Shown: piece by piece, positions 3,196 through 42,040 of the stretch | Numbering within the stretch: the stretch's first letter is position 1 | How the letters are laid out: the number at the start of each line of letters is the position of its first letter | Source of the DNA: Candidatus Nomurabacteria bacterium | GTDB taxonomy: Bacteria; Patescibacteriota; Minisyncoccia; Phycocordibacterales; SBAW01 | NCBI GenBank assembly: GCA_943349945.1 | Contig: CALQZS010000001.1 | Coordinates: 130,803-194,802, forward strand | Reading direction: 5' to 3' | Length of the DNA: 64,000 bases | Notes under the pieces: model-generated | What the model was told of the DNA's origin: nothing | The model's input: the letters and a program-made list of their open reading frames with translations, nothing else | Database searches by the model: none | Program-made: the position numbers and the translations under genes

Positions 3196-3723
3196 TTAGC
3201 AGCCAGCAACTACGCTGCCGCCAGTGCCGCTACTGACATGTACTGAGCCAAAAGTTGCTGCAGTACCTCCGTAAGTAACGTTACCTGCCTCTAGCACTGT
3301 GCAGATTTTGTAGTTTTGGGTTGTTGCACCTGCTGCAGGCGCTGCACCTACCGCTGTGTCTGTACCTATAACGTACTGACATGCTGCTGATGCAACTGCG
3401 CTACTTGCCGCTGGTGCACATGCTGTACCTGCTGTACCTACTGTTGGGTCTCCATATGCAGAGAAGCTTACAGGACTTGGGCCAGTACAGGTGTTTGCTT
3501 TTGCACTTGCGCCTGTGCAGGTTGCCAAGGCAACTGCGGGGTCAGTGTCGGCAAGCTGTATTGCCTTTGCCATTTCTTTAAGTGACGAGACGCGTTCTGC
3601 ATCACGTGCCTTGCCGCGAGCACTATTAAGAGAAACCAGCACAATAGATGCCAAGATACCGATGATGGCGATAACCACCAAGAGTTCTATAAGGGTGAAA
3701 CCTTTCGTAAACGTTTTGCGCAT
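3196..3723 (-). CDS. type IV pilin (Ala/Gly/Thr-rich C-terminal domain)
   Basis: [28 protein letters not shown] prepilin motif. Confidence 0.85.
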
Positions 3724-3828
3724 AGAAATCTTCTATTTATTAATAATCTGCCATTAATAGTGACTCGCAGATATGCCGTAAGTATATCCTACCCCGCTTT
3801 GCCGCCAGGCCGCTTGTGTGGATAAGCC

Positions 3829-3872
3829 CACCCGCGGGTTAAACCCGCAGGTGGAATGTGTGGTGTAATATA
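3829..3872. repeat. REP-like ~45-nt repeat with palindromic core (acccgcgggt taa acccgcaggt), upstream copy
   Basis: Direct repeat of 4574..4618 (cacctgcgggttaaaccagcaggtgaaatgtgtggtgtaatatat), about 85% identical. Together they bracket the RAYT gene. Confidence 0.7.
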
Positions 3873-4556
3873 CTTATGTCAAATCGGGCACCCATAGCCA
3901 CGGGCGAGTGGTACCATTGCTACACTCGCGGAGTGGACAAGCGTATCGTCTTTGAAACCCGATCTGACTATGAGCGTTTCTTGGCATACCTTTATATAGG
4001 AAACGGTACCAACCTGCTCCGTCTTTCAAACATACAAGACAAGCGTTTGGTGTCCGTACTCACCAATACACGTCTGCAGCGCGGAGAGCCCTTGGTCGAC
4101 ATAGGCGCATACACCCTTATGCCTAATCATGCGCATTTTATATTACGACAAACACACGACCAGGGCATCGCCACCTTTATGCAGCGAGTTTTTACTGGAT
4201 ATACACAATACTTCAACAACAAACACGAACGGACGGGAGCGCTCTTTTCAGGAACATACAAGTCGAAACACATACTGGACGACCGCTATCTAAAGCAAGT
4301 AACTGCCTATGTATTGCTAAACCCGGTGGAATTATTTGAACCCGCATGGAAAGAAGGAGTGGGCAACTTGAACCACATCGAAAAACAGGTTCGCACCTAT
4401 CCTTATTCTAGTCTCGTTGATTTTTATGGGTCACAGCGCCCAGAAAGCAGTATCACGACAAACACGCTGCACGCGTACTATGATCAGCGTCCTAGCCTTA
4501 CAGACATGCTTGCGGACGCGCAGGCATTTTATAGAGAACACGAGCCTAAAGCTTGA
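3858..4556 (+). mobile_element. IS200/IS605-like Y1 (HuH) transposase, REP-associated tyrosine transposase (RAYT)-like
   Basis: WYHCYTRG...LMPNHAHFIL (HuH motif) ...SGTYKSKHI (catalytic Tyr region), inserted on the opposite strand between pilC and the pilins. The first ATG lies inside the repeat, so an alternative start at 3876 (MSNRAP) is possible. Confidence 0.8.
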
Positions 4557-10528: not shown

Positions 10529-11629
10529 TTACCCTATTTCTTGCAAACGACGGAGTGCCAAGCCCACTGCCACACAAAACTCTGGTCCTGCTTCTTTTAA
10601 AATCTCTTCCAAAAATGCGGGCGCCTCTGTTTTACCAAAAGGGTCTGCAAGACGGATTTCTGTTTGTATTTTGCCTTGTGCAAAAGCCTGCATACCTTTA
10701 AGCGTGGCGCCACCACCAGTCAAAATGAGCGCACTCAAAGACTGATTCATCCGCGCCTCGTATGCCGCCACCGTGCGCGAAATATCGGACAACAAAGGAG
10801 ACAGAGAAAGTTCGAGTGATTTTTGTAGCTCTGCCCAGCCGCCCGGGTCTGTAGCAGACCCACCACCAGTAAGCCCGAATTTGCGCTTGCGTTCTTCTGC
10901 TTCGGCAACAGAAATATTGAGCGCACGCGAAGCCGCAAGTGTAAGGTCTTGGCTGCCGTGGTTGATGATGTGACTCTCGTGTATAAGCCCGCGCTCGACG
11001 ACATAAAACTTGGTAGTGGCCGCACCCATGTCGACCACAGCCACCGGTGCTATGCCATGGTCGAGCGCGGCACGCACTGCACTAAAGACCTCTATCTCAA
11101 AAAATCCAGTAACCAACCCGGCGTCGCTAGATATAGTACGGAACTTGGCCAGTGTGTCGTTGTGTATAGCAACAAGCAAAACTTCTATTTTGTCGGATGG
11201 CTCGGCGCTTTTACCTCCGCCACCCACCACAAACCAGTCGAGCATTACCTCGTTAATAGGCACGGGGATGTATTTGCGCGCCTCAATAGGCACCACTTGC
11301 GCCAGCTGTTTTTCTACGGACGCAGGTAGGCGCAAAATTGAGATCAAGCTCGACGAGTATGGTATAGCGATGCCCGCGTCTGTGGTGGTTACGTTTGCCT
11401 CGCGTATGACGTCTTTAAGCGCCTCGGCGATTTTCTCAGCAGGAAGGGCAGTGGCGCGGCCAATTTCTATATCGGCATACGGCCCAAGCGCTATGGCGCC
11501 ATACGTCTCGAGTATCACCTTACCCCTATCGCGCCGCAGTTGTACAACCTTAATGGACGAGGTGCCAATGTCGACACCAAGTACACTTTTTTGCGGCTTA
11601 TTAAAGAATGTTGAAAAGGAAAATGCCAT
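10529..11629 (-). CDS. pilM: type IV pilus assembly ATPase-like protein PilM (actin/FtsA fold)
   Basis: VLGVDIGTSSIKVVQL... and ...ILTGGGA motifs of the actin-like ATPase fold. 366 aa. Confidence 0.85.
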   Translation of the reverse strand: MAFSFSTFFNKPQKSVLGVDIGTSSIKVVQLRRDRGKVILETYGAIALGPYADIEIGRATALPAEKIAEALKDVIREANVTTTDAGIAIPYSSSLISILRLPASVEKQLAQVVPIEARKYIPVPINEVMLDWFVVGGGGKSAEPSDKIEVLLVAIHNDTLAKFRTISSDAGLVTGFFEIEVFSAVRAALDHGIAPVAVVDMGAATTKFYVVERGLIHESHIINHGSQDLTLAASRALNISVAEAEERKRKFGLTGGGSATDPGGWAELQKSLELSLSPLLSDISRTVAAYEARMNQSLSALILTGGGATLKGMQAFAQGKIQTEIRLADPFGKTEAPAFLEEILKEAGPEFCVAVGLALRRLQEIG

Positions 11630-22625: not shown

Positions 22626-22715
22626 TGCGGAGAGAGCGAGATTCGAACTCGCGGGCCCAATTAAGGGCCGACAGTTTAGTAAACTGTTGATTTAAACCAC
22701 TCATCCATCTCTCCA
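22626..22715 (-). tRNA. type II (long variable arm) tRNA, Ser-like identity (G73), apparent anticodon ACU
   Basis: Minus-sense fold: GGAGAGA UG GAU gagugguuuaa AUC A ACAGU uuACUaa ACUGU cGGCCCuuaauuGGGCCc GCGAG uucgaau CUCGC UCUCUCC G. All stems are canonical. The 7-nt anticodon loop UUACUAA gives A34-C35-U36. Confidence 0.65.
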
Positions 22716-22926: not shown

Positions 22927-23011
22927 GGAGACGTGTCAGAGTGGTCGAATGTGCCTCCTTGCTAAGGAGGTAGGGCGCAAGCCCTCGTGGGTTCGAATCC
23001 CACCGTCTCCG
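22927..23011 (+). tRNA. tRNA-Ser(GCU)
   Basis: GGAGACG...CCUCC uuGCUaa GGAGG, long variable arm GGGCgcaaGCCC, T-arm GUGGG uucgaau CCCAC, acceptor CGUCUCC, discriminator G. Confidence 0.9.
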
Positions 23012-31104: not shown

Positions 31105-31637
31105 GATTGTGCTTCTGGTTCCATGAGCGTACGGAGCTTTTTGAGCCCGCGGTGTATCCGCACCGATACCACATTTTCGCTCTCTTCTATCGACTCTGCA
31201 ATCTCTTTTGGACTAAAGCCCTCTATATAGCGCAGCGCCAACACCTCGCGGTATGGGTCGGCCAACTTGGCCAGCGCCGCGAGCGCGCGCTTGCCGTCGA
31301 AGCGGTCCATAGCAGCTTCGAGCGCGTTTGTCTCGTCGGCAGGTAAAAGGGACTCCACCGTCTCGCCGCCCTCGCCGCTTTCGACCATCTGTTCGAGCGA
31401 TGTGGTTTTGTGCTTGCGGTACTCGTCGACAATAAGGTTATGTAGCGTGCGGTAAAAGAAGGGACGGTAGTCGTGGATTTCTTCGCCGCGCGAGACATAG
31501 GCCCACGCACGCAGAAAAGTCTCTTGCGTCAAGTCGAGCGCCCGCTCCCTGTCGGAGAGCCTGAGTGTCGCATGCCGGAAAAGCTCGTCGGCATACCGCT
31601 CAAAGGCAGCAGTAAATTGTTTTTCTGTGTCTACCAT
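31101..31637 (-). CDS. ECF-type RNA polymerase sigma-70 factor
   Basis: Region 2 (FLRAWAYV...YRTLHNLIVDEYR) and region 4 HTH (LRYIEGFSPKEIAESIEESENVVSVRIHRGLKKL). Confidence 0.85.
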   Translation of the reverse strand: MVDTEKQFTAAFERYADELFRHATLRLSDRERALDLTQETFLRAWAYVSRGEEIHDYRPFFYRTLHNLIVDEYRKHKTTSLEQMVESGEGGETVESLLPADETNALEAAMDRFDGKRALAALAKLADPYREVLALRYIEGFSPKEIAESIEESENVVSVRIHRGLKKLRTLMEPEAQS

Positions 31638-31713
31638 ATATAGAGACGGATGAGAGCCTCTACTCTTTCATCGCCTACCTATTCTACCCTATACAACCCG
31701 TACACTAGACGCA

Positions 31714-31746
31714 AAAACACCACCCCTAAACAGGGTGGTGTTTTTA
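31714..31746 (-). terminator. intrinsic terminator (minus strand) ending the hammerhead-containing transcript
   Basis: Minus sense ACACCACCC uguuuag GGGUGGUGU followed by UUUUUG. Also works on plus (bidirectional). Confidence 0.65.
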
Positions 31747-31866
31747 AACATCCATAGGGCCACGAGCCATGCACAGTGGTTAGAGGAGAGAGTTTTTTGC
31801 TCCGTCTTGGCTAGTGCAATTTGGAGCTTCTCACACAGCGTGACTCATGACCCTATAGAGATTTTT

Positions 31867-31917
31867 ACCTTTTCGTCCTTTTGGACTCATCAGCCCGGGC
31901 ACACACCCGAGGAAAGT
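31867..31917 (-). ncRNA. hammerhead self-cleaving ribozyme motif, type III
   Basis: Minus sense: GACUUUC^CUCGGG-UGUGUG-CCCGGG-CUGAUGA-GUCC-AAAA-GGAC-GAAA-AGGUA. All invariant core nucleotides are present (CUGAUGA, GAAA, U16.1-H17 = UC). Stem I is 6 bp with a 6-nt loop, stem II is 4 bp with an AAAA loop and the G10.1-C11.1 closing pair, and stem III is 5 bp and open. Predicted cleavage lies between plus coordinates 31912 and 31911. Confidence 0.7.
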
Positions 31918-32009
31918 CGGACGACACGCAGCGTTGTTGCGCCGTGTCGCCCGTTAGCCCCGGACTAGCCGGGGCGGCCGGGGATGATTTTGCGGTAATC
32001 ATCCTGTTG

Positions 32010-32402
32010 TTAGGTGCCGCATATAGCGGCCACGAACTGCTTCGCAAGTTCTTGGCGATTCAGTTCTGACGCCCGATCGTCGCTGGGGACGCACGGGGAC
32101 TTAGTTAACCCGTACGCCAAAGAAGCGTAACTCACCGCCATCGACGGATTGTAACCGCCCCAAAAGCGAGCGGCCTCAGCCGCTGCCAGAACGGCGAACT
32201 TCTTCGCCGCCTGTGAGTCCTCAATGGACACATCGAATGGTCGGTCAGCGTGACCGAAAACCCCAAAAAGGGCCCTTTCGATTTCATAGAGTACCCGCTC
32301 TGAAATCTCTCCACCCACTATCATCCATTGGACGACCTGTGGGTTGGGCATCCACAGCCCAGCGACAACAAGCGCTGCCATTCGCGCATGTACTATTGTC
32401 AT
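32010..32402 (-). CDS. hypothetical protein (130 aa)
   Basis: RBS GGAGAG 4 nt before ATG. Preceded by a ~365-nt structured leader and consensus promoter, followed by the hammerhead ribozyme. No family recognised. Confidence 0.45.
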   Translation of the reverse strand: MTIVHARMAALVVAGLWMPNPQVVQWMIVGGEISERVLYEIERALFGVFGHADRPFDVSIEDSQAAKKFAVLAAAEAARFWGGYNPSMAVSYASLAYGLTKSPCVPSDDRASELNRQELAKQFVAAICGT

Positions 32403-32770
32403 TTTACTCTCCGTTTTTTTGAGCGTTGGATTTTGCCAACGCTCGGGTTTAGAACATCAGGGTGCAATTTCTTGCGATCCCTCTTGCCGCACCGAGCATT
32501 AGAGTGCATCCATCTGCACTAGGCAGACAGGCTCATGACTCGGTAAGGCGAAGAGGAACAACAAAGGTGATCTTTCGATCGTTTGTTATTTCCCGACGCC
32601 AATATTTGGGTCGGGATCCCGACTTTGCGGGATCTATTCGCTATTCTTTTGTCAAAGAATGTCTCTCTTTCGAGAGAAGTCGGATGGCAAAATGGGCCAA
32701 ATATAAAAGATGTGCCTTTTGCCGTCCGGCTTCTCCCTACGACTCTCTCCTCTAAGAGGTAATCGTTAAA
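32403..32770 (-). promoter_or_regulatory. long highly structured 5' leader (candidate riboswitch / regulatory RNA)
   Basis: About 365 nt between the predicted TSS and the ORF. Contains a ~19-bp helix (GAGAAGCCGGACGGCAAAA...UUUUGCCAUCCGACUUCUC), several GAAA-tetraloop hairpins (CUCUC GAAA GAGAG, GAUC GAAA GAUC), and palindromes (GUCGGGAUCCCGAC). Confidence 0.45.
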
Positions 32771-32776
32771 CCCATT

Positions 32777-32805
32777 ATACCCCCTTATTCCGAGTTTGTC
32801 AAGTA
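32777..32805 (-). promoter_or_regulatory. consensus sigma70-type promoter (TTGACA-17-TATAAT) on minus strand
   Basis: Minus sense TTGACA (32805..32800), 17-nt spacer, TATAAT (32782..32777). Confidence 0.55.
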
Positions 32806-32889
32806 GTTCGAGGCGCTCATAACCAAACAGGCAAAATAGCCCTATACATAAGGCTTTTTAGGCACTCTAGAGCCTGCCTTGCTTTGTAG

Positions 32890-34056
32890 CTACCGCACAG
32901 CCTTTGCAACCGCCTCCATGACCCCTTTGTCGAAGGGCCCAGGGATTATTTTGTCTGCCGTAGGCTTTTTGACCAGCGCAGCCAAGTTGTGGGCGGCAGC
33001 CAACTTCATCTTGTCGGTGATTTTGGTGACCTTGTGGTCGAGCGCTCCGCGGAAGATGCCGGGGAATGCTAGCGAATTGTTGATTTGGTTTGGGAAGTCG
33101 CTCCGCCCTGTGGCCACCACAGCTGCCCCTCCCCGCATAGCATCGCCCGGCATAATTTCGGGAGTCGGGTTGGCAAGCCCAAAAACAATCGCACGCGGTG
33201 CCATCATTTGCACGTGCCGCGCCTGCATCAGCCCCGGGCCAGAAACCCCCACCACAGCGTCCGCCCCCGCAAGCGCATCTTCTAAACCTCCCTGTATCTT
33301 GCGTGGGTTTGTGTGTTTGGCCAGCGCCTGCTTGTGCGGCTCGTTACTATTCACCGTGATGATTCCTTTACTGTCGAGGACGATTACATCTTTAACACCC
33401 GCCAAGAGCAGCAGCTTGGTTACGGCGGTGCCTGCAGCACCCGCGCCAGCCACTACTACTTTTAATTTCTTTAGATCTTTCTTTACCACCTTTGCTGCGT
33501 TAATGAGCGCTGCGAGCACCACAATTGCTGTGCCGTGCTGGTCGTCGTGCATCACGGGGATGTTGAGCGCCGCCTTTACCCTGTCTTCTATCTCAAAACA
33601 ATTGGGCGCAGTAAAGTCTTCGAGGTTGATGCCACCGAATGCGGGCGCAATGCGCACAATAGTCTCGACAATCTCGTCGACGTTTTGTGTATCGAGCACA
33701 ATCGGGAATGCGTCTACGTCTGCAAACGACTTAAACAGCGCAGCCTTACCCTCCATAACCGGCAGCGCACCATAGGGCCCGATGTTGCCCAACCCCAACA
33801 CTGCCGAGCCGTCGGAGATAACCGCGACCATGCGTTTTTTTATTGTGTATTCTTTTGCGAGCGTCTCTTGTTTTTTTGTTGGGTGGAGTTTGCCTTTAGT
33901 GCCCGCGACAAGTGTCGACACCGCCGCCACGCCCGGCGTGTATACCAAACTCAAGTCGTCTCTGTTTGTAACGGGCGCTGCTGCCTGGATGCGAATTTTA
34001 CCCCCGAGTTTTTTGTGTAATGCAATTGCCTTTGCTGCGGTGTCGTTTTTTGCCAT
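32890..34056 (-). CDS. NAD(P)-dependent malic enzyme
   Basis: Start at MAKNDTAAKAIALH (internal Met of the longer ORF). VYTPGVAAV..., GLGNIGPYGALPVMEGKAALFK, VVAGAGAAGTAV Rossmann motif. 389 aa. Confidence 0.85.
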   Translation of the reverse strand: MAKNDTAAKAIALHKKLGGKIRIQAAAPVTNRDDLSLVYTPGVAAVSTLVAGTKGKLHPTKKQETLAKEYTIKKRMVAVISDGSAVLGLGNIGPYGALPVMEGKAALFKSFADVDAFPIVLDTQNVDEIVETIVRIAPAFGGINLEDFTAPNCFEIEDRVKAALNIPVMHDDQHGTAIVVLAALINAAKVVKKDLKKLKVVVAGAGAAGTAVTKLLLLAGVKDVIVLDSKGIITVNSNEPHKQALAKHTNPRKIQGGLEDALAGADAVVGVSGPGLMQARHVQMMAPRAIVFGLANPTPEIMPGDAMRGGAAVVATGRSDFPNQINNSLAFPGIFRGALDHKVTKITDKMKLAAAHNLAALVKKPTADKIIPGPFDKGVMEAVAKAVR

Positions 34057-36531: not shown

Positions 36532-36603
36532 TGGGCGCGGCAGGGATTGAACCTGCGACCAGTCGTGTATAAGACGACCGCTCTACCACTGAGCTACGCG
36601 CCC
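36532..36603 (-). tRNA. tRNA-Ile(UAU)
   Basis: Minus sense GGGCGCG UA GCUC aguggua GAGC G GUCGU cuUAUac ACGAC uggUC GCAGG uucaauc CCUGC CGCGCCC A. Anticodon loop CUUAUAC gives UAU. Confidence 0.8.
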
Positions 36604-41652: not shown

Positions 41653-42028
41653 GGGGATGCCAGGCCTAGACAATGAAGACGCCTGTTGAATGCGCGCAGT
41701 AGAAGTCTGGACCTTCTTAAAAATCCGGAAACAATAACTGCAAAAAACAGTGTTTCGCCGTATTTCGCGGCGAACGACTTCCAGTTCGCGTTCGCGCGAG
41801 CGTAAGTCGCATCTACCCTTCCTCTCTCTTGCGGGTTGGGATAGGTGTTATATAGCAAGAGTATAGTTGCAAGAGCCGCTCTGACTTGCATCCGAACATA
41901 AGAGCTGCAGGAAGTTATGATTTCGTTTGCTTTGCCCATAACAGCCTAAAGAAACAACAAGCGAACTACACTACGTAGAAGCTTCAGCAGCACTTCATTG
42001 CACGGCGGTTCAATTCCGCCCATCTCCA
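41653..42028 (+). ncRNA. ssrA: tmRNA (SsrA)
   Basis: 5' GGGGAUG pairs with 3' CAUCUCC (G3:U70 Ala identity, A73). T-arm GGCGG uucaauu CCGCC. Internal tag ORF GCG GCG AAC GAC UUC CAG UUC GCG UUC GCG CGA GCG UAA gives (A)ANDFQFAFARA*. Located directly downstream of smpB. Confidence 0.8.
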
Positions 42029-42040
42029 CATAAAAATAAA

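What the first reader, a model, noticed from the sequence alone, without database searches (positions are those of the whole stretch)
31867..31917. Complete type-III hammerhead ribozyme motif between a small ORF and the ECF-sigma envelope operon
On the minus strand the RNA reads GACUUUC^CUCGGG-UGUGUG-CCCGGG-CUGAUGA-GUCC-AAAA-GGAC-GAAA-AGGUA. Every invariant hammerhead nucleotide is in place (C3-A9 = CUGAUGA, G12-A14 plus A15.1 = GAAA, U16.1-C17 cleavage dinucleotide, G10.1:C11.1 closing stem II). Three coaxial stems have the right topology: stem I is 6 bp with a 6-nt loop, stem II is 4 bp with a tetraloop, and stem III is 5 bp and open. The motif sits in the 3' region of a promoter-driven transcript (leader, 130-aa ORF, structured RNA, ribozyme, then an intrinsic terminator at 31714-31746), about 230 nt upstream and on the same strand as an ECF sigma / anti-sigma / ABC / L,D-transpeptidase operon. 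Self-cleavage here would trim the 3' end of the small-ORF mRNA, or process a read-through transcript entering the sigma operon. A ribozyme in this context, paired with an unusually long structured leader, is not a described arrangement.
Basis: seen in the sequence. Interest (0 to 1): 0.8.

Follow-up and report, generated by a model that had tools for sequence, protein, structure and literature searches.

The report
Hammerhead ribozyme preceding a conserved RNA
The motif is very probably a working self-cutting hammerhead RNA in a Saccharibacteria (CPR) genome, and it sits exactly at the 5' edge of a conserved, undescribed rod-shaped RNA, so it most likely cuts that RNA free from the messenger RNA upstream rather than serving the sigma-factor operon downstream.

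Summary
Window 31866-31918 (minus strand) carries a complete type III hammerhead (HH), with cleavage predicted between 31912 and 31911. Rfam's Hammerhead_3 scores it 31.0 bits, below the gathering score of 48.5. Comparative evidence is strong: the HH is kept in five related Saccharibacteria loci. In 20 related HHs, 94.7% of cells pair and 12 of 17 pairs show compensatory changes. It belongs to the same subclass (loop 1 UGUGUR, stem II GUCC-NAAA-GGAC) as many HHs on phage contigs.

The link to the ECF-sigma operon is not supported. A terminator intervenes, and relatives that lack the sigma genes keep the HH.

Sequence conservation starts exactly at the HH and runs through a ~119-nt rod-like RNA (31864-31746). 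This RNA is absent from Rfam, occurs in about 45 metagenome loci, and is 94.7% paired with 19 of 33 pairs compensatory. Its invariant loop, CUCUCUCCUCUAA, is the perfect complement of a site 13-25 nt into the same transcript's leader (32755-32743). In other members the HH position is taken by two unclassified structured elements.

Best reading: the HH separates the upstream mRNA from the rod RNA, which may then pair with the leader. Cleavage and pairing are inferred, not shown.

The parts
32774..32802 (-). Sigma-70-type promoter, TTGACA-17-TATAAT. The presumed transcription start is near 32767.
   Evidence: 12 of 12 consensus matches, the only promoter-like site in 31500-33000. The same promoter is conserved in L122 and L125.
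32403..32767 (-). Leader RNA of about 365 nt with sequence blocks shared with distant loci, including a long hairpin GGGAGAAGCCGGACGGCAAAAGG...UUUUGCCAUCCGACUUCUCUC.
   Evidence: Alignments show blocks shared with L123, L127 and L210. No Rfam family matches at E<=10.
32743..32755 (-). Leader site UUAGAGGAGAGAG, about +13 to +25 of the transcript. It is the perfect reverse complement of the rod-RNA loop motif.
   Evidence: It is unique in the 64-kb window at 0 mismatches. The predicted 14-bp duplex is -24.1 kcal/mol, against -12.7 +/- 3.3 for shuffled loops. Across about 50 rod loci there are 18 upstream same-strand sites and 0 downstream.
32010..32402 (-). ORF130, a small lineage-specific protein of unknown function that acts as the cargo ORF of the unit.
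   Evidence: No Pfam hit. Only six homologue clusters exist in two very large protein libraries. The AlphaFold model is all-helical but unreliable, with mean pLDDT 51.
31919..31952 (-). Hairpin H1 (GGGCGACACGGCGC-AACAA-CGCUGCGUGUCGUCC), ending directly 5' of the hammerhead's stem III strand. After cleavage it would sit at the 3' end of the upstream RNA.
   Evidence: Sequence and folds. An equivalent G+C-rich hairpin abuts the HH, or the element that replaces it, in most related loci (by inspection).
31866..31918 (-). Type III hammerhead ribozyme. Predicted cleavage is 3' of C31912, between 31912 and 31911.
   Evidence: Rfam Hammerhead_3 31.0 bits, E 7.5e-5. A purpose-built model scores it 73.1 bits. 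Covariation across 20 HHs is. It is conserved in L122, L123, L124, L128 and L258.
31746..31864 (-). Rod-like structured RNA, short form. The base helix pairs 31858-31841 with 31769-31752. GUGUGAG follows, then a variable hairpin (GCUCC...GGAGC), then the conserved apical strand.
   Evidence: About 90-97% identical in window, L122, L123 and L128, while both flanks are unalignable. Homologues occur in about 45 metagenome loci. 94.7% of cells pair, 19 of 33 pairs are compensatory, and 0 of 500 shuffles reach the observed values. No Rfam family matches.
31780..31797 (-). Invariant apical motif AAAAACUCUCUCCUCUAA of the rod RNA (core CUCUCUCCUCUAA at 31792-31780).
   Evidence: Shared between the window and L127. 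It was used as the search pattern. Its complement lies in the leader.
31711..31745 (-). Intrinsic terminator hairpin (ACACCACCC-UGUUUA-GGGGUGGUGU) followed by UUUUU. It ends the unit before the ECF sigma gene.
   Evidence: Sequence and fold. The simple scan did not list it because the T-run is borderline.

Best explanation
The segment is an active type III hammerhead ribozyme inside one transcription unit of a Saccharibacteria chromosome. The unit runs: promoter (32802-32774), 365-nt leader, ORF130, hairpins, hammerhead, rod-like RNA, terminator (31745-31711).

As the RNA is made, the hammerhead folds and cuts after C31912. This produces two RNAs:
- The leader-ORF130 mRNA, which now ends in hairpin H1 plus GACUUUC with a 2',3'-cyclic phosphate.
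- An RNA of about 200 nt with a 5'-hydroxyl, consisting of the hammerhead body, the rod RNA and the terminator.

The ribozyme therefore defines the 5' end of a conserved non-coding RNA and uncouples it from the mRNA. It does not process the ECF-sigma operon.

The rod RNA displays an invariant pyrimidine loop, CUCUCUCCUCUAA, which can form a perfect 13-14 bp duplex with UUAGAGGAGAGAG(U) at the 5' end of the leader. The released RNA probably feeds back on its own unit by pairing with that site, in cis before cleavage or in trans after it.

Shown here: the motif, its conservation, covariation of all three hammerhead helices and of the rod RNA, the exact conservation boundary, and the complementarity with its one-sided distribution.

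Inferred: self-cleavage itself, co-transcription of all parts, the pairing, and any regulatory outcome.

My step-wise confidence is about 0.85 that the ribozyme cleaves, about 0.65 that its role is to mature or release the rod RNA, and about 0.45 that loop-leader pairing is functional.
For: 1. Complete core and three helices. The core pattern occurs once against 0.00 expected.
2. The HH is retained downstream of ORF130 homologues that are 76%, 69% and more distantly related (L122, L123/L124, L258), and also in L128, which has a different upstream ORF. The only substitutions in the stems keep pairing: U:G to U:A in stem I and G.U to G:C in stem III. A 16-nt hairpin is tolerated in loop 2.
3. 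A genome scan that specified only the core, stem II and the 3' strand of stem III returned 5 hits, 4 of them in Saccharibacteria or Magasanikbacteria MAGs. All 5 have a proper stem I, stem III, U16.1 and a non-G residue at position 17.
4. In 20 HHs, 94.7% of cells pair and stem I is 100% paired with 6 of 7 pairs covarying. Overall 12 of 17 pairs are compensatory, no shuffle of 500 reaches the covariation score, and slid controls give 32-49%.
5. The model built from these HHs scores the window at 73.1 bits. It also finds further HHs between ORFs, for example four on one strand in L183, the last one directly before a rod RNA.
6. Conservation starts at the stem III 5' strand and ends at the 3' end of the rod RNA. 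Both flanks differ between lineages.
7. The rod RNA is a real structured RNA on the same strand: G.U pairs far outnumber A.C mismatches and 19 of 33 pairs are compensatory. Among about 46-49 rod-RNA loci, about 17 have a type III HH within roughly 150 nt upstream.
8. The leader site is a perfect complement, with 18 upstream same-strand sites against 0 downstream and a predicted duplex of -24.1 kcal/mol.
9. L123, L124 and L128 lack the sigma and anti-sigma genes but keep the module.
10. Precedent: bacterial hammerheads that cut polycistronic RNAs, shown active in vitro and in vivo (PMC3088659).
Against: - There is no experimental or transcript evidence for cleavage, for the transcript boundaries, or for a stable ~200-nt RNA.
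- The Rfam score is below the gathering threshold.
- In nearest-neighbour folding, the hammerhead fold in context is 3.4-6 kcal/mol less stable than the minimum-energy fold. Stem III is weak.
- Both the rod loop and the leader site are invariant, so no covariation supports their pairing. Purine- and pyrimidine-rich strings pair fairly well even when shuffled.
- Only 14 of 34 loci with at least 1 kb of upstream sequence show a site with <=1 mismatch.
- In L156 the same purine motif sits 8-9 nt before AUG codons, where it looks like an ordinary Shine-Dalgarno sequence.
- L125 and about 30 metagenome members have the rod RNA without a hammerhead. A ribozyme is therefore not obligatory, unless the elements that replace it do the same job.
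Confidence: 0.6

Rival explanations
1. The hammerhead mainly serves the upstream mRNA. Cleavage creates a defined 3' end, hairpin H1 plus a short tail with a cyclic phosphate. This stabilises or limits the ORF130 message, as in phage and prophage polycistronic transcripts, and the downstream RNA is incidental.
For: A G+C-rich hairpin abuts the 5' side of the hammerhead in the window and in most related loci. Hammerheads of the same subclass lie between ORFs with no rod RNA after them, both in L183 and on many phage contigs, up to 5 per contig. L131 and L130 have HHs just upstream of ORFs. Tandem hammerheads cutting polycistronic RNAs are documented (PMC3088659).
Against: In L128 the upstream ORF is replaced, while the HH and rod RNA are kept nearly unchanged. 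Conservation starts at the HH, not in the upstream 3' UTR. The rod RNA is itself under structural selection. The two readings are not exclusive, because one cut produces both ends.
Confidence: 0.2
2. One reading: the ribozyme processes read-through transcripts that enter the ECF sigma / anti-sigma / ABC / L,D-transpeptidase operon, and so tunes envelope-stress gene expression.
For: The HH is on the same strand, 230 nt upstream of the sigma gene. The same order, HH-rod then sigma or ABC operon, is seen in the window, L122, L125 and L258. L123 and L128 have the ABC genes only.
Against: A strong terminator hairpin with a U-run lies between them. L123, L124 and L128 lack the sigma and anti-sigma genes yet keep the HH and rod. 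In L258 an oppositely oriented PemK gene is inserted between the rod and the sigma gene. L127 and the metagenome members have unrelated downstream genes. The shared order among close relatives is explained by synteny.
Confidence: 0.07
3. The unit (leader, cargo ORF, hammerhead, rod RNA) is a remnant or a live copy of a mobile or phage-derived cassette. The ribozyme is inherited baggage with no present role for the host. The 13-bp leader/loop complementarity is a DNA-level inverted repeat, such as transposon ends, rather than an RNA-RNA contact.
For: The HH subclass is abundant on viral contigs. The region between the malic-enzyme gene and the ECF/ABC operon is variable among relatives and holds small unknown ORFs and a ParE-like gene. 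Rod RNAs often lie next to tRNA genes, and toxin, GNAT, Fic and DUF3800 genes lie downstream. Cargo ORFs are unrelated between loci. An inverted 13-mer flanking variable cargo is what terminal inverted repeats look like.
Against: The exact rod motif gave only 6 hits on viral contigs, none of them family-like. No transposase, integrase or phage protein was found among 42 upstream ORFs. Conserved RNA structure extends well beyond the 13-mer on both sides and is strand-specific, rich in G.U pairs. The promoter lies outside the repeat, and the leader motif is often present in 2-5 direct copies. The module is kept at one syntenic site across relatives whose orthologous proteins are only 52-95% identical.
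Confidence: 0.1
4. The motif is a chance look-alike with no ribozyme activity.
For: The Rfam score is below the gathering threshold. Stem III is short and A/U-rich, and a competing fold is more stable in silico.
Against: The core pattern alone is expected 0.00 times in the window. The motif is conserved in five related loci with structure-preserving changes, and stems I to III covary across 20 sequences. It scores 73 bits with a subclass model that also hits 80 sites in the 100 viral loci searched, all pre-selected for the stem II pattern.
Confidence: 0.03

Closest known systems
Type III hammerhead ribozymes (Rfam RF00008), in particular the sTRSV-like design and the many hammerheads on tailed-phage contigs
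   Same: The core is identical (CUGAUGA, GAAA, U16.1-C17, G10.1:C11.1). Stem III is open. Stem I is 6 bp capped by a UGUG-type loop, and stem II is the 4-bp GUCC/GGAC helix with a 4-nt loop. The 359-nt viral-collection record L071 reads ACCGGA-UGUGCUU-UCCGGU CUGAUGA GUCC-GUGA-GGAC GAAAC; I recognise it from memory as the sTRSV hammerhead. The model built from the CPR hammerheads hits 80 sites in the 100 viral loci searched (pre-selected for the stem II pattern), at 34-71 bits and up to 5 per contig.
   Different: It lies in a cellular Saccharibacteria chromosome, as a single copy in 64 kb. It scores below Rfam's gathering threshold. Position 15.2:16.2 is A:U rather than the usual C:G. Some relatives carry a 16-nt hairpin inserted in loop 2. 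Activity is untested.
Tandem hammerheads that cut bacterial polycistronic transcripts in prophage-like regions (Perreault et al. 2011, PMC3088659)
   Same: The ribozymes lie in intergenic positions of co-directional gene strings of mostly unknown function. L183 has four in one operon-like string. That paper showed cleavage in vitro and in vivo for such arrangements, with the purpose unknown.
   Different: Here the last, or only, hammerhead directly precedes a conserved structured RNA rather than the next ORF. No phage proteins were found in the units.
3'-UTR to 5'-UTR base pairing within one bacterial mRNA, as in icaR of Staphylococcus aureus, where a UCCCC anti-SD motif in the 3' UTR pairs with the SD region (recalled from memory, not checked here)
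   Same: A pyrimidine-rich, anti-SD-like motif at the 3' end of a transcript is complementary to a purine-rich, SD-like site at its 5' end.
   Different: Here the 3' element is a separate, covarying ~119-190-nt rod RNA conserved across CPR lineages, and a ribozyme is placed to sever it from the mRNA. The leader site is not next to a start codon in the window. Nothing about function has been tested.
Rod-shaped small RNAs whose 5' and 3' ends pair: Y RNAs, 6S RNA and 4.5S/SRP RNA (resemblance recalled from memory)
   Same: A long terminal helix is formed by the two ends, an exposed pyrimidine-rich strand lies at the far end, and many members have a U-tail.
   Different: No Rfam model of any of these, or of any other family, matches at E<=10 in the window or E<=0.5 in eight members. 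L161 and L205 hold two rod copies each. The neighbours are variable unknown ORFs, not Ro60, ygfA or ffh.
Conserved RNA motifs with 3' terminators and nearby-gene associations: drum, DUF3800-I, skipping-rope and FuFi-1 (Weinberg et al. 2017, PMC5737381)
   Same: These are highly conserved structured RNAs that end in or are followed by a terminator. They are not in 5' UTRs and lie in variable gene neighbourhoods. One rod locus has a DUF3800-IX RNA and a DUF3800 gene next to it.
   Different: All of those motifs are in Rfam and none matches the rod RNA. That paper does not report a ribozyme at their 5' edge.

Membership tests
Hammerhead ribozyme, type III (RF00008) | Invariant core: C3 U4 G5 A6 N7 G8 A9 between stems I and II, and G12 A13 A14 between stems II and III. 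| tested here: met
   CUGAUGA at 31893-31887 and GAA at 31874-31872. These columns are invariant in 20 related HHs.
Hammerhead ribozyme, type III (RF00008) | Cleavage-site context: an A15.1:U16.1 pair followed by H17 (any base but G). | tested here: met
   A31871:U31913 and C31912. The U:A pair is present in 20 of 20 sequences, and H17 is C, A or U in all of them.
Hammerhead ribozyme, type III (RF00008) | Three helices around the core. Stems I and II are closed by loops, stem III is open (type III topology), and G10.1:C11.1 closes stem II. | tested here: met
   Stem I is 100% paired with 6 of 7 pairs covarying. Stem II is 100% paired, with G:C in 20 of 20. Stem III is 85% paired with 4 of 6 pairs covarying. 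Slid controls give 32-49%.
Hammerhead ribozyme, type III (RF00008) | Score at or above Rfam's curated gathering threshold (48.5 bits). | tested here: not met
   31.0 bits, E 7.5e-5 on 401 nt, and no hit at gathering. Other clear members of this bacterial subclass also fail it: L148 scores 33.1 bits, and none of six HH-bearing loci was reported at gathering. A subclass model gives 73.1 bits. I read this as a limit of the curated model for this subclass, not as evidence against membership.
Hammerhead ribozyme, type III (RF00008) | Loop 1 - loop 2 tertiary contact that makes natural hammerheads fast at physiological Mg2+. | not testable with these tools
   Only indirect support. Loop 1 is conserved as U-GUGU-R and loop 2 as NAAA, or a hairpin ending in ..CAA, across the 20 sequences. 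The geometry (6-bp stem I, 4-bp stem II) matches the sTRSV-type design.
Hammerhead ribozyme, type III (RF00008) | Site-specific self-cleavage giving 2',3'-cyclic phosphate and 5'-OH ends. | not testable with these tools
   This needs in vitro transcription or end-specific RNA-seq.
Any described RNA family (Rfam 15) for the downstream rod RNA and for the leader | A covariance-model match. | tested here: not met
   Apart from the HH there is nothing credible at E<=10 in window 31700-32100 or 32380-32900. Nothing appears at gathering in 29 related loci, nor at E<=0.5 in 8 members.
Other self-cleaving ribozyme classes (twister, twister-sister, pistol, hatchet, HDV-like) for the elements that replace the HH (class B, element X) | A covariance-model match to the Rfam models of those classes. 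| tested here: not met
   No such hit in L125 4380-5300 at E<=5, nor in L185, L174, L182, L213 or L146 at E<=0.5. Whether these elements cleave themselves is not testable here.

The most novel reading that the evidence does not exclude
The hammerhead may be one interchangeable punctuation part of an undescribed RNA-framed gene cassette, so far traced by record title only to Saccharibacteria among CPR lineages. Such a cassette would have four parts:
- A conserved 0.3-0.9 kb 5' leader RNA carrying one to five AGAGGAGAGAGU boxes.
- Variable cargo ORFs of unknown function.
- Processing elements after a hairpin: a type III hammerhead, or one of two unclassified structured elements that could be new self-cleaving ribozymes or nuclease sites.
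- A 3' rod RNA whose invariant loop pairs with the leader boxes.

In this reading, ribozyme cleavage turns a cis-linked 3' domain into a trans-acting regulator of its own unit.
Probability: 0.3. Interest if true: 0.85.

Novelty: new variant of a known kind. Interest (0 to 1): 0.62.

Why it matters
Thousands of bacterial hammerheads are known, but what they are for is still largely open. Here the ribozyme has a concrete, testable job. It sits exactly at the 5' boundary of a conserved structured RNA, which implies ribozyme-made 5' ends for a non-coding RNA and separation of that RNA from an mRNA.

I found no paper in the searchable literature that discusses hammerheads in Saccharibacteria or other CPR bacteria. 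The companion rod RNA, its complementary leader site and the two elements that replace the hammerhead are absent from Rfam 15. They therefore offer a new RNA family, a candidate 5'-3' RNA contact, and two candidates to test for self-cleavage, all in a poorly understood part of the bacterial tree. If the elements that occupy the same position cleave themselves, that would repeat the association-based route by which twister-sister, pistol and hatchet were found.

Tried and rejected
1. Rfam at curated thresholds on the whole window found only tmRNA and three tRNAs. E-value mode was needed to see the HH.
2. A search of species-representative genomes for ORF130 relatives found nothing. ORF130 has only a handful of homologues, no Pfam domain and an unreliable AlphaFold model (pLDDT 51). 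No fold search was run because the matches would be meaningless.
3. I first concluded that L125 lacks the module, on the basis of a misaligned intergenic region. I corrected this: L125 has the rod RNA further downstream, preceded by element X instead of an HH.
4. I tried to identify the rod RNA and the leader as known families (drum, DUF3800 motifs, 6S, Y RNA, SRP, RNase P, intron domains). No Rfam hits were found. A literal-sequence search of the literature returned only unrelated papers. My memory that drum RNAs follow ribozymes was not borne out by the paper.
5. I considered whether class B elements are promoters. I rejected this because the spacing between the hexamer-like parts varies from 23 to 28+ nt and the intervening stem covaries (by inspection).
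6. I looked for a protein partner. The 42 upstream ORFs are mostly unrelated and have almost no Pfam, PADLOC or PHROG hits. Downstream genes are a mixed set including GNAT, Fic, PemK, Zeta, NYN and DUF3800. One locus has a MoxR AAA+ and VWA pair. There is no consistent association.
7. I checked for viral origin of the rod RNA. The 18-nt motif gave six viral hits, none family-like.
8. Thermodynamic folding as a test of the HH was not decisive. The HH fold is 3.4-6 kcal/mol above the minimum-energy fold in context.
Full report
**1. The observation**

- Every invariant hammerhead position is present: C3-A9, G12-A14, A15.1:U16.1, C17 and G10.1:C11.1.
- The topology is type III: stems I and II are capped and stem III is open.
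- The predicted scissile bond lies between 31912 and 31911.

Rfam's Hammerhead_3 aligns end to end (model positions 1-54) at 31.0 bits, with E = 7.5e-5 for a 401-nt search. That is below the curated 48.5-bit threshold, so the whole-window scan at gathering thresholds shows only a tmRNA and three tRNAs. The 13 specified bases of CTGATGAG-N10-CGAAA occur once in the window, with 0.00 expected from 100 shuffles. The three helices make chance far less likely still.

**2. Is it a real hammerhead? Comparative evidence**

The upstream 130-aa ORF (32010-32402) has very few relatives. Their contigs give orthologous loci with the same gene order: RecG, malic enzyme, small ORFs, then an ECF sigma / DUF5667 / ABC operon.

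The hammerhead is present in these loci:
- L122, where ORF130 is 76% identical.
- L123 and L124, at 69%.
- L258, a more distant homologue.
- L128, a GTDB record titled uncultured Candidatus Saccharibacteria, where the upstream ORF is a different one.

The stem differences all preserve pairing: U:G to U:A in stem I and G.U to G:C in stem III. Four of these lineages carry a 16-nt hairpin inserted into loop 2, a position where hammerheads tolerate insertions.

A scan of species-representative genomes with only the core, stem II and the 3' strand of stem III gave five hits. Three are Saccharibacteria, one Magasanikbacteria and one a gammaproteobacterial MAG. All five turned out to have a correct and different stem I, a stem III, U16.1 and a non-G residue at position 17.

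I then aligned 20 non-identical hammerheads: the window, its relatives, the GTDB hits, and those found next to the downstream RNA in metagenomes. The alignment gives these results:
- 94.7% of cells are paired.
- Stems I and II are 100% paired.
- 12 of 17 pairs have compensatory changes.
- No shuffle of 500 reaches the covariation score.
- Sliding the 3' partners by 1-3 columns drops pairing to 32-49%.
- Loop 1 is conserved as U-GUGU-R and loop 2 as NAAA. This is what one expects if the loops make the tertiary contact of natural hammerheads, although that contact cannot be tested here.

A covariance model built from this alignment scores the window at 73.1 bits. It also finds 80 sites in the 100 viral loci searched (all pre-selected for the stem II pattern), at up to 71 bits and up to five per contig (raw sequences). 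The window's ribozyme therefore belongs to a subclass that is common on phage contigs. It resembles the sTRSV design, which I recognise from memory in the sequence of L071.

The one soft spot is thermodynamics. In context, the hammerhead fold is 3.4-6 kcal/mol above the minimum-energy fold, mostly because stem III is weak. Nearest-neighbour models ignore the tertiary contact and co-transcriptional folding, so I do not weigh this heavily.

**3. What it belongs to**

Aligning the window with L122, L123 and L128 shows where the conserved block lies:
- It begins exactly at the 5' strand of stem III. L128 is unalignable upstream of that point.
- It continues through the hammerhead and about 140 nt beyond it, to ...GGCUCGUGGCCCUNUGGA.
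- Past that point the lineages diverge again.

These genomes are not close: orthologous proteins are 52-95% identical. The block is therefore under purifying selection. It contains non-triplet indels and no conserved ORF (by inspection).

The block folds into a rod (window 31864-31746). Its parts are:
- A base helix rich in G.U pairs (31858-31841 with 31769-31752).
- A GUGUGAG element.
- A variable hairpin.
- An apical strand, AAAAACUCUCUCCUCUAA.

L127, a more distant Saccharibacteria MAG, has the same arrangement: hammerhead, then a rod with a different, covarying base helix and the same apical motif.

About 45 of them are clearly the same RNA. They come in a long form of about 140-180 nt and a short form like the window's, for example L186. 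On 13 long-form sequences the consensus structure is 94.7% paired, and 19 of 33 pairs are compensatory. None of 500 shuffles reaches the observed values on four of the five measures (2 of 500 on the fifth), and slid controls give 43-55%. G.U pairs are frequent and A.C mismatches rare, so the structure belongs to the RNA of the hammerhead strand.

No Rfam 15 family matches this RNA, neither at curated thresholds nor at permissive E-values.

About 17 of these rod RNAs have a type III hammerhead within roughly 150 nt upstream. In L183, four hammerheads on one strand sit between ORFs, and the last lies directly before the rod.

**4. Not the sigma operon**

Several observations count against a link to the ECF-sigma operon:
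- A terminator hairpin with a U-run (31745-31711) separates the module from the ECF sigma gene.
- L123, L124 and L128 lack the sigma and anti-sigma genes but keep the module.
- L258 has an oppositely oriented PemK-like gene inserted between the two.
- L127 and the metagenome members have unrelated downstream genes.

The shared order in close relatives is therefore synteny, not function.

**5. A clue to function: complementarity with the leader**

A perfect consensus promoter (TTGACA-17-TATAAT, 32802-32774) lies 370 nt upstream of ORF130. Thirteen to 25 nt into the predicted transcript sits UUAGAGGAGAGAG (32755-32743). This is the exact reverse complement of the rod loop core, CUCUCUCCUCUAA (31792-31780). 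It is unique in the 64-kb window.

The same holds in other loci:
- Perfect 13 of 13 matches occur in L122, L123/L124, L125, L169, L183 and L210.
- Matches with one mismatch occur in seven further loci.
- The sites lie 0.66-5.5 kb upstream on the same strand.

Within +/-6 kb of the rod in about 50 loci there are 18 upstream same-strand sites, 0 downstream, and 0 on the other strand apart from additional rods.

In larger loci the purine box AGAGGAGAGAGU recurs two to five times in an ORF-free 0.3-0.9 kb region. That region shares further sequence blocks with the window's leader. The predicted duplex is 14 bp at -24.1 kcal/mol.

There are caveats:
- Both partners are invariant, so no covariation exists for this contact.
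- Shuffled pyrimidine loops still pair at -12.7 +/- 3.3 kcal/mol.
- In L156 the box looks like an ordinary Shine-Dalgarno sequence in front of AUG codons.
- Only 14 of 34 loci with enough upstream sequence show a site with <=1 mismatch.

**6. Mechanism proposed**

Shown: the motif, its conservation, covariation of the hammerhead and of the rod RNA, the boundary of conservation, the promoter and terminator consensus matches, and the one-sided complementarity.

Inferred: one transcript runs from about 32767 to about 31711, and the hammerhead cuts it after C31912.
- The upstream product is the leader-ORF130 mRNA. It ends in hairpin H1 (31952-31919) plus seven nucleotides and a cyclic phosphate. 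Similar hairpins abut the ribozyme in most related loci.
- The downstream product is an RNA of about 200 nt. It starts with a 5'-OH at 31911 and carries the rod RNA and the terminator.

The released RNA can then pair through its loop with the leader box of its own unit. That would be an autoregulatory contact in trans, or a 5'-3' contact in cis that cleavage dissolves. Whether the outcome is repression, stabilisation or something else cannot be said from sequence.

**7. Elements in the hammerhead's place**

L125, where the ORF130 homologue is about 61% identical, has the rod RNA but no hammerhead. Directly 5' of the rod, after a hairpin, lies a different conserved structure, which I call element X: CCCUUUUAAGCNCUUCA...UGGAGAAUUUAAAAGGGGAAUGUUCCCC. 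It recurs between ORFs in L125 and L123, with one compensatory change in its outer helix.

About 20 metagenome members instead have a hairpin followed by CUUUAUUGAGC-[variable, covarying stem]-GCUCAUAGAG, which I call class B.

Neither element matches any Rfam ribozyme model. They may be other processing signals, either ribozymes or nuclease or protein sites. That would fit the idea that making the rod's 5' end is the conserved requirement. This remains untested.

**8. Cargo and neighbourhood**

- The ORFs between leader and rod are mostly unrelated to each other. They have almost no Pfam, PADLOC or PHROG matches.
- L169 carries a MoxR-type AAA+ and VWA pair.
- Downstream neighbours include GNAT, Fic, PemK, Zeta-toxin, NYN and DUF3800 genes.
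- tRNA genes are often adjacent.

This looks like variable, island-type DNA. However, no mobility genes were seen, and the exact rod motif is not found in rod-like form on viral contigs.

**9. Comparison with what is known, and novelty**

As a ribozyme, this is a new member of a well-known class. Its closest relatives are the phage-borne and sTRSV-like type III hammerheads, and the closest functional precedent is the set of tandem hammerheads that cut bacterial polycistronic RNAs (PMC3088659).

Several things are not described in Rfam 15 or in the papers I could search:
- Hammerheads in Saccharibacteria or other CPR bacteria.
- A hammerhead placed at the 5' boundary of a conserved structured RNA.
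- The rod RNA itself.
- Its complementarity to the leader.
- The alternative elements in the ribozyme's position.

I therefore rate the finding as a new variant of a known kind. Interest is moderate to high, because the locus gives the long-standing question of what bacterial hammerheads do a specific, testable answer.

Noticed in passing
L125 4425-4490, 5073-5147 and about 3940-4000; L123 about 3545-3640 and 3930-3990; possible degenerate copy in window about 32425-32470 (-): Element X is a repeated intergenic structure that follows a GGCGAC...GUCGCC hairpin: CCCUUUUAAGCNCUUCA-[variable]-UGGAGAAUUUAAAAGGGGAAUGUUCCCC. It has a 9-bp outer helix, one copy of which shows a compensatory change (CCCUCUU/AAGAGGG). 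In L125 it occupies the position that the hammerhead holds in the window. It has no Rfam match and is a candidate processing element or ribozyme.
   Followed up: partly
for example L201 about 11040-11110 (+), L163, L169, L187, L207, L210, L217, L218, L232 (upstream of their rod RNAs): Class B element: a G+C-rich hairpin is followed by CUUUAUUGAGC-[variable, covarying stem]-GCUCAUAGAG. This forms a helix with one bulged U and a conserved base. It precedes the rod RNA in about 20 metagenome loci that lack a hammerhead. It has no Rfam match.
   Followed up: partly
window 32403-32767 (-); L169 1400-2150; L183, L195, L199, L201, L205, L175, L217: The 5' ORF-free region of these units is itself conserved across distant loci. 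Shared blocks include UCGUUGGAAGAAGCCGG.CGGC, CCUCCGACUUCUCUC, UUCUUGACAAAAGAAUAG, UUGUUGUUCCUCGUUGCC and GGUACGGUACGAGGGAUCGCA. It carries 1-5 AGAGGAGAGAGU boxes. It may be a second undescribed structured RNA; no Rfam family matches.
   Followed up: partly
L183 4086-4034, 3712-3660, 2464-2400, 827-775 (-); L131 2690-2743 and 3569-3622 (+); L202 892-956 and 2494-2549 (+): Several hammerheads of the same subclass lie on one strand within a few kb, between ORFs. One L131 copy has CUGACGA (C at position 7), an allowed variation. RNA between two such sites would carry 5'-OH and cyclic-phosphate ends.
   Followed up: partly
viral loci L009, L018, L028, L030, L032, L042, L047, L059, L067, L089: Phage contigs carry three to five type III hammerheads each with the same loop 1 (UGUGUG/UGAGUG) and stem II design. 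Many are followed by an A-rich stretch (..GAAACGGAAAC..), presumably ahead of the next gene.
   Followed up: no
window 41653-42031 (+); 36532-36603 (-); 22628-22714 (-); 22927-23011 (+): A tmRNA gene (101.9 bits) and three tRNA genes are the only Rfam matches at curated thresholds in the window.
   Followed up: no
L163 3368-3436 (+) and the ORF at 3460-4116 (-): A DUF3800-IX RNA (46.2 bits) lies close to a rod RNA (4165-4301). One downstream ORF in the scanned set has a DUF3800 domain, but one search does not say which; it may be the adjacent L163 ORF. The DUF3800-associated RNAs are themselves of unknown function.
   Followed up: no
L169 3345-4646 and 4815-6212 (+): The cargo of one unit is a MoxR-type AAA+ ATPase followed by a VWA-domain protein. 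Related VWA proteins are the cargo in L195 and L199.
   Followed up: no
L199 7758-8013 (-); L140 415-503 (-): A group I intron (69.2 bits) and an AdoCbl-II riboswitch (42.2 bits) lie on contigs that also carry rod RNAs. They appear unrelated to the finding.
   Followed up: no
L122 3032-3563; L258 811-1107 (-); region between the malic-enzyme gene and the ECF/ABC operon in L122, L123, L125: This interval varies among related Saccharibacteria genomes. It holds a ParE-like toxin gene (L122), a PemK-like gene (L258) and strings of small unknown ORFs of 142, 87 and about 120 aa (L123, L125). The window holds only ORF130 there.
   Followed up: partly
L161 (motifs at 1630 and 2735), L205 (two rods about 2.3 kb apart), L151: L161 and L205 carry two rod RNAs on one strand (L151 shows a second motif hit that was not examined). 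In L161 the first is preceded by a hammerhead (1469-1521). This argues against a single-copy housekeeping RNA.
   Followed up: no
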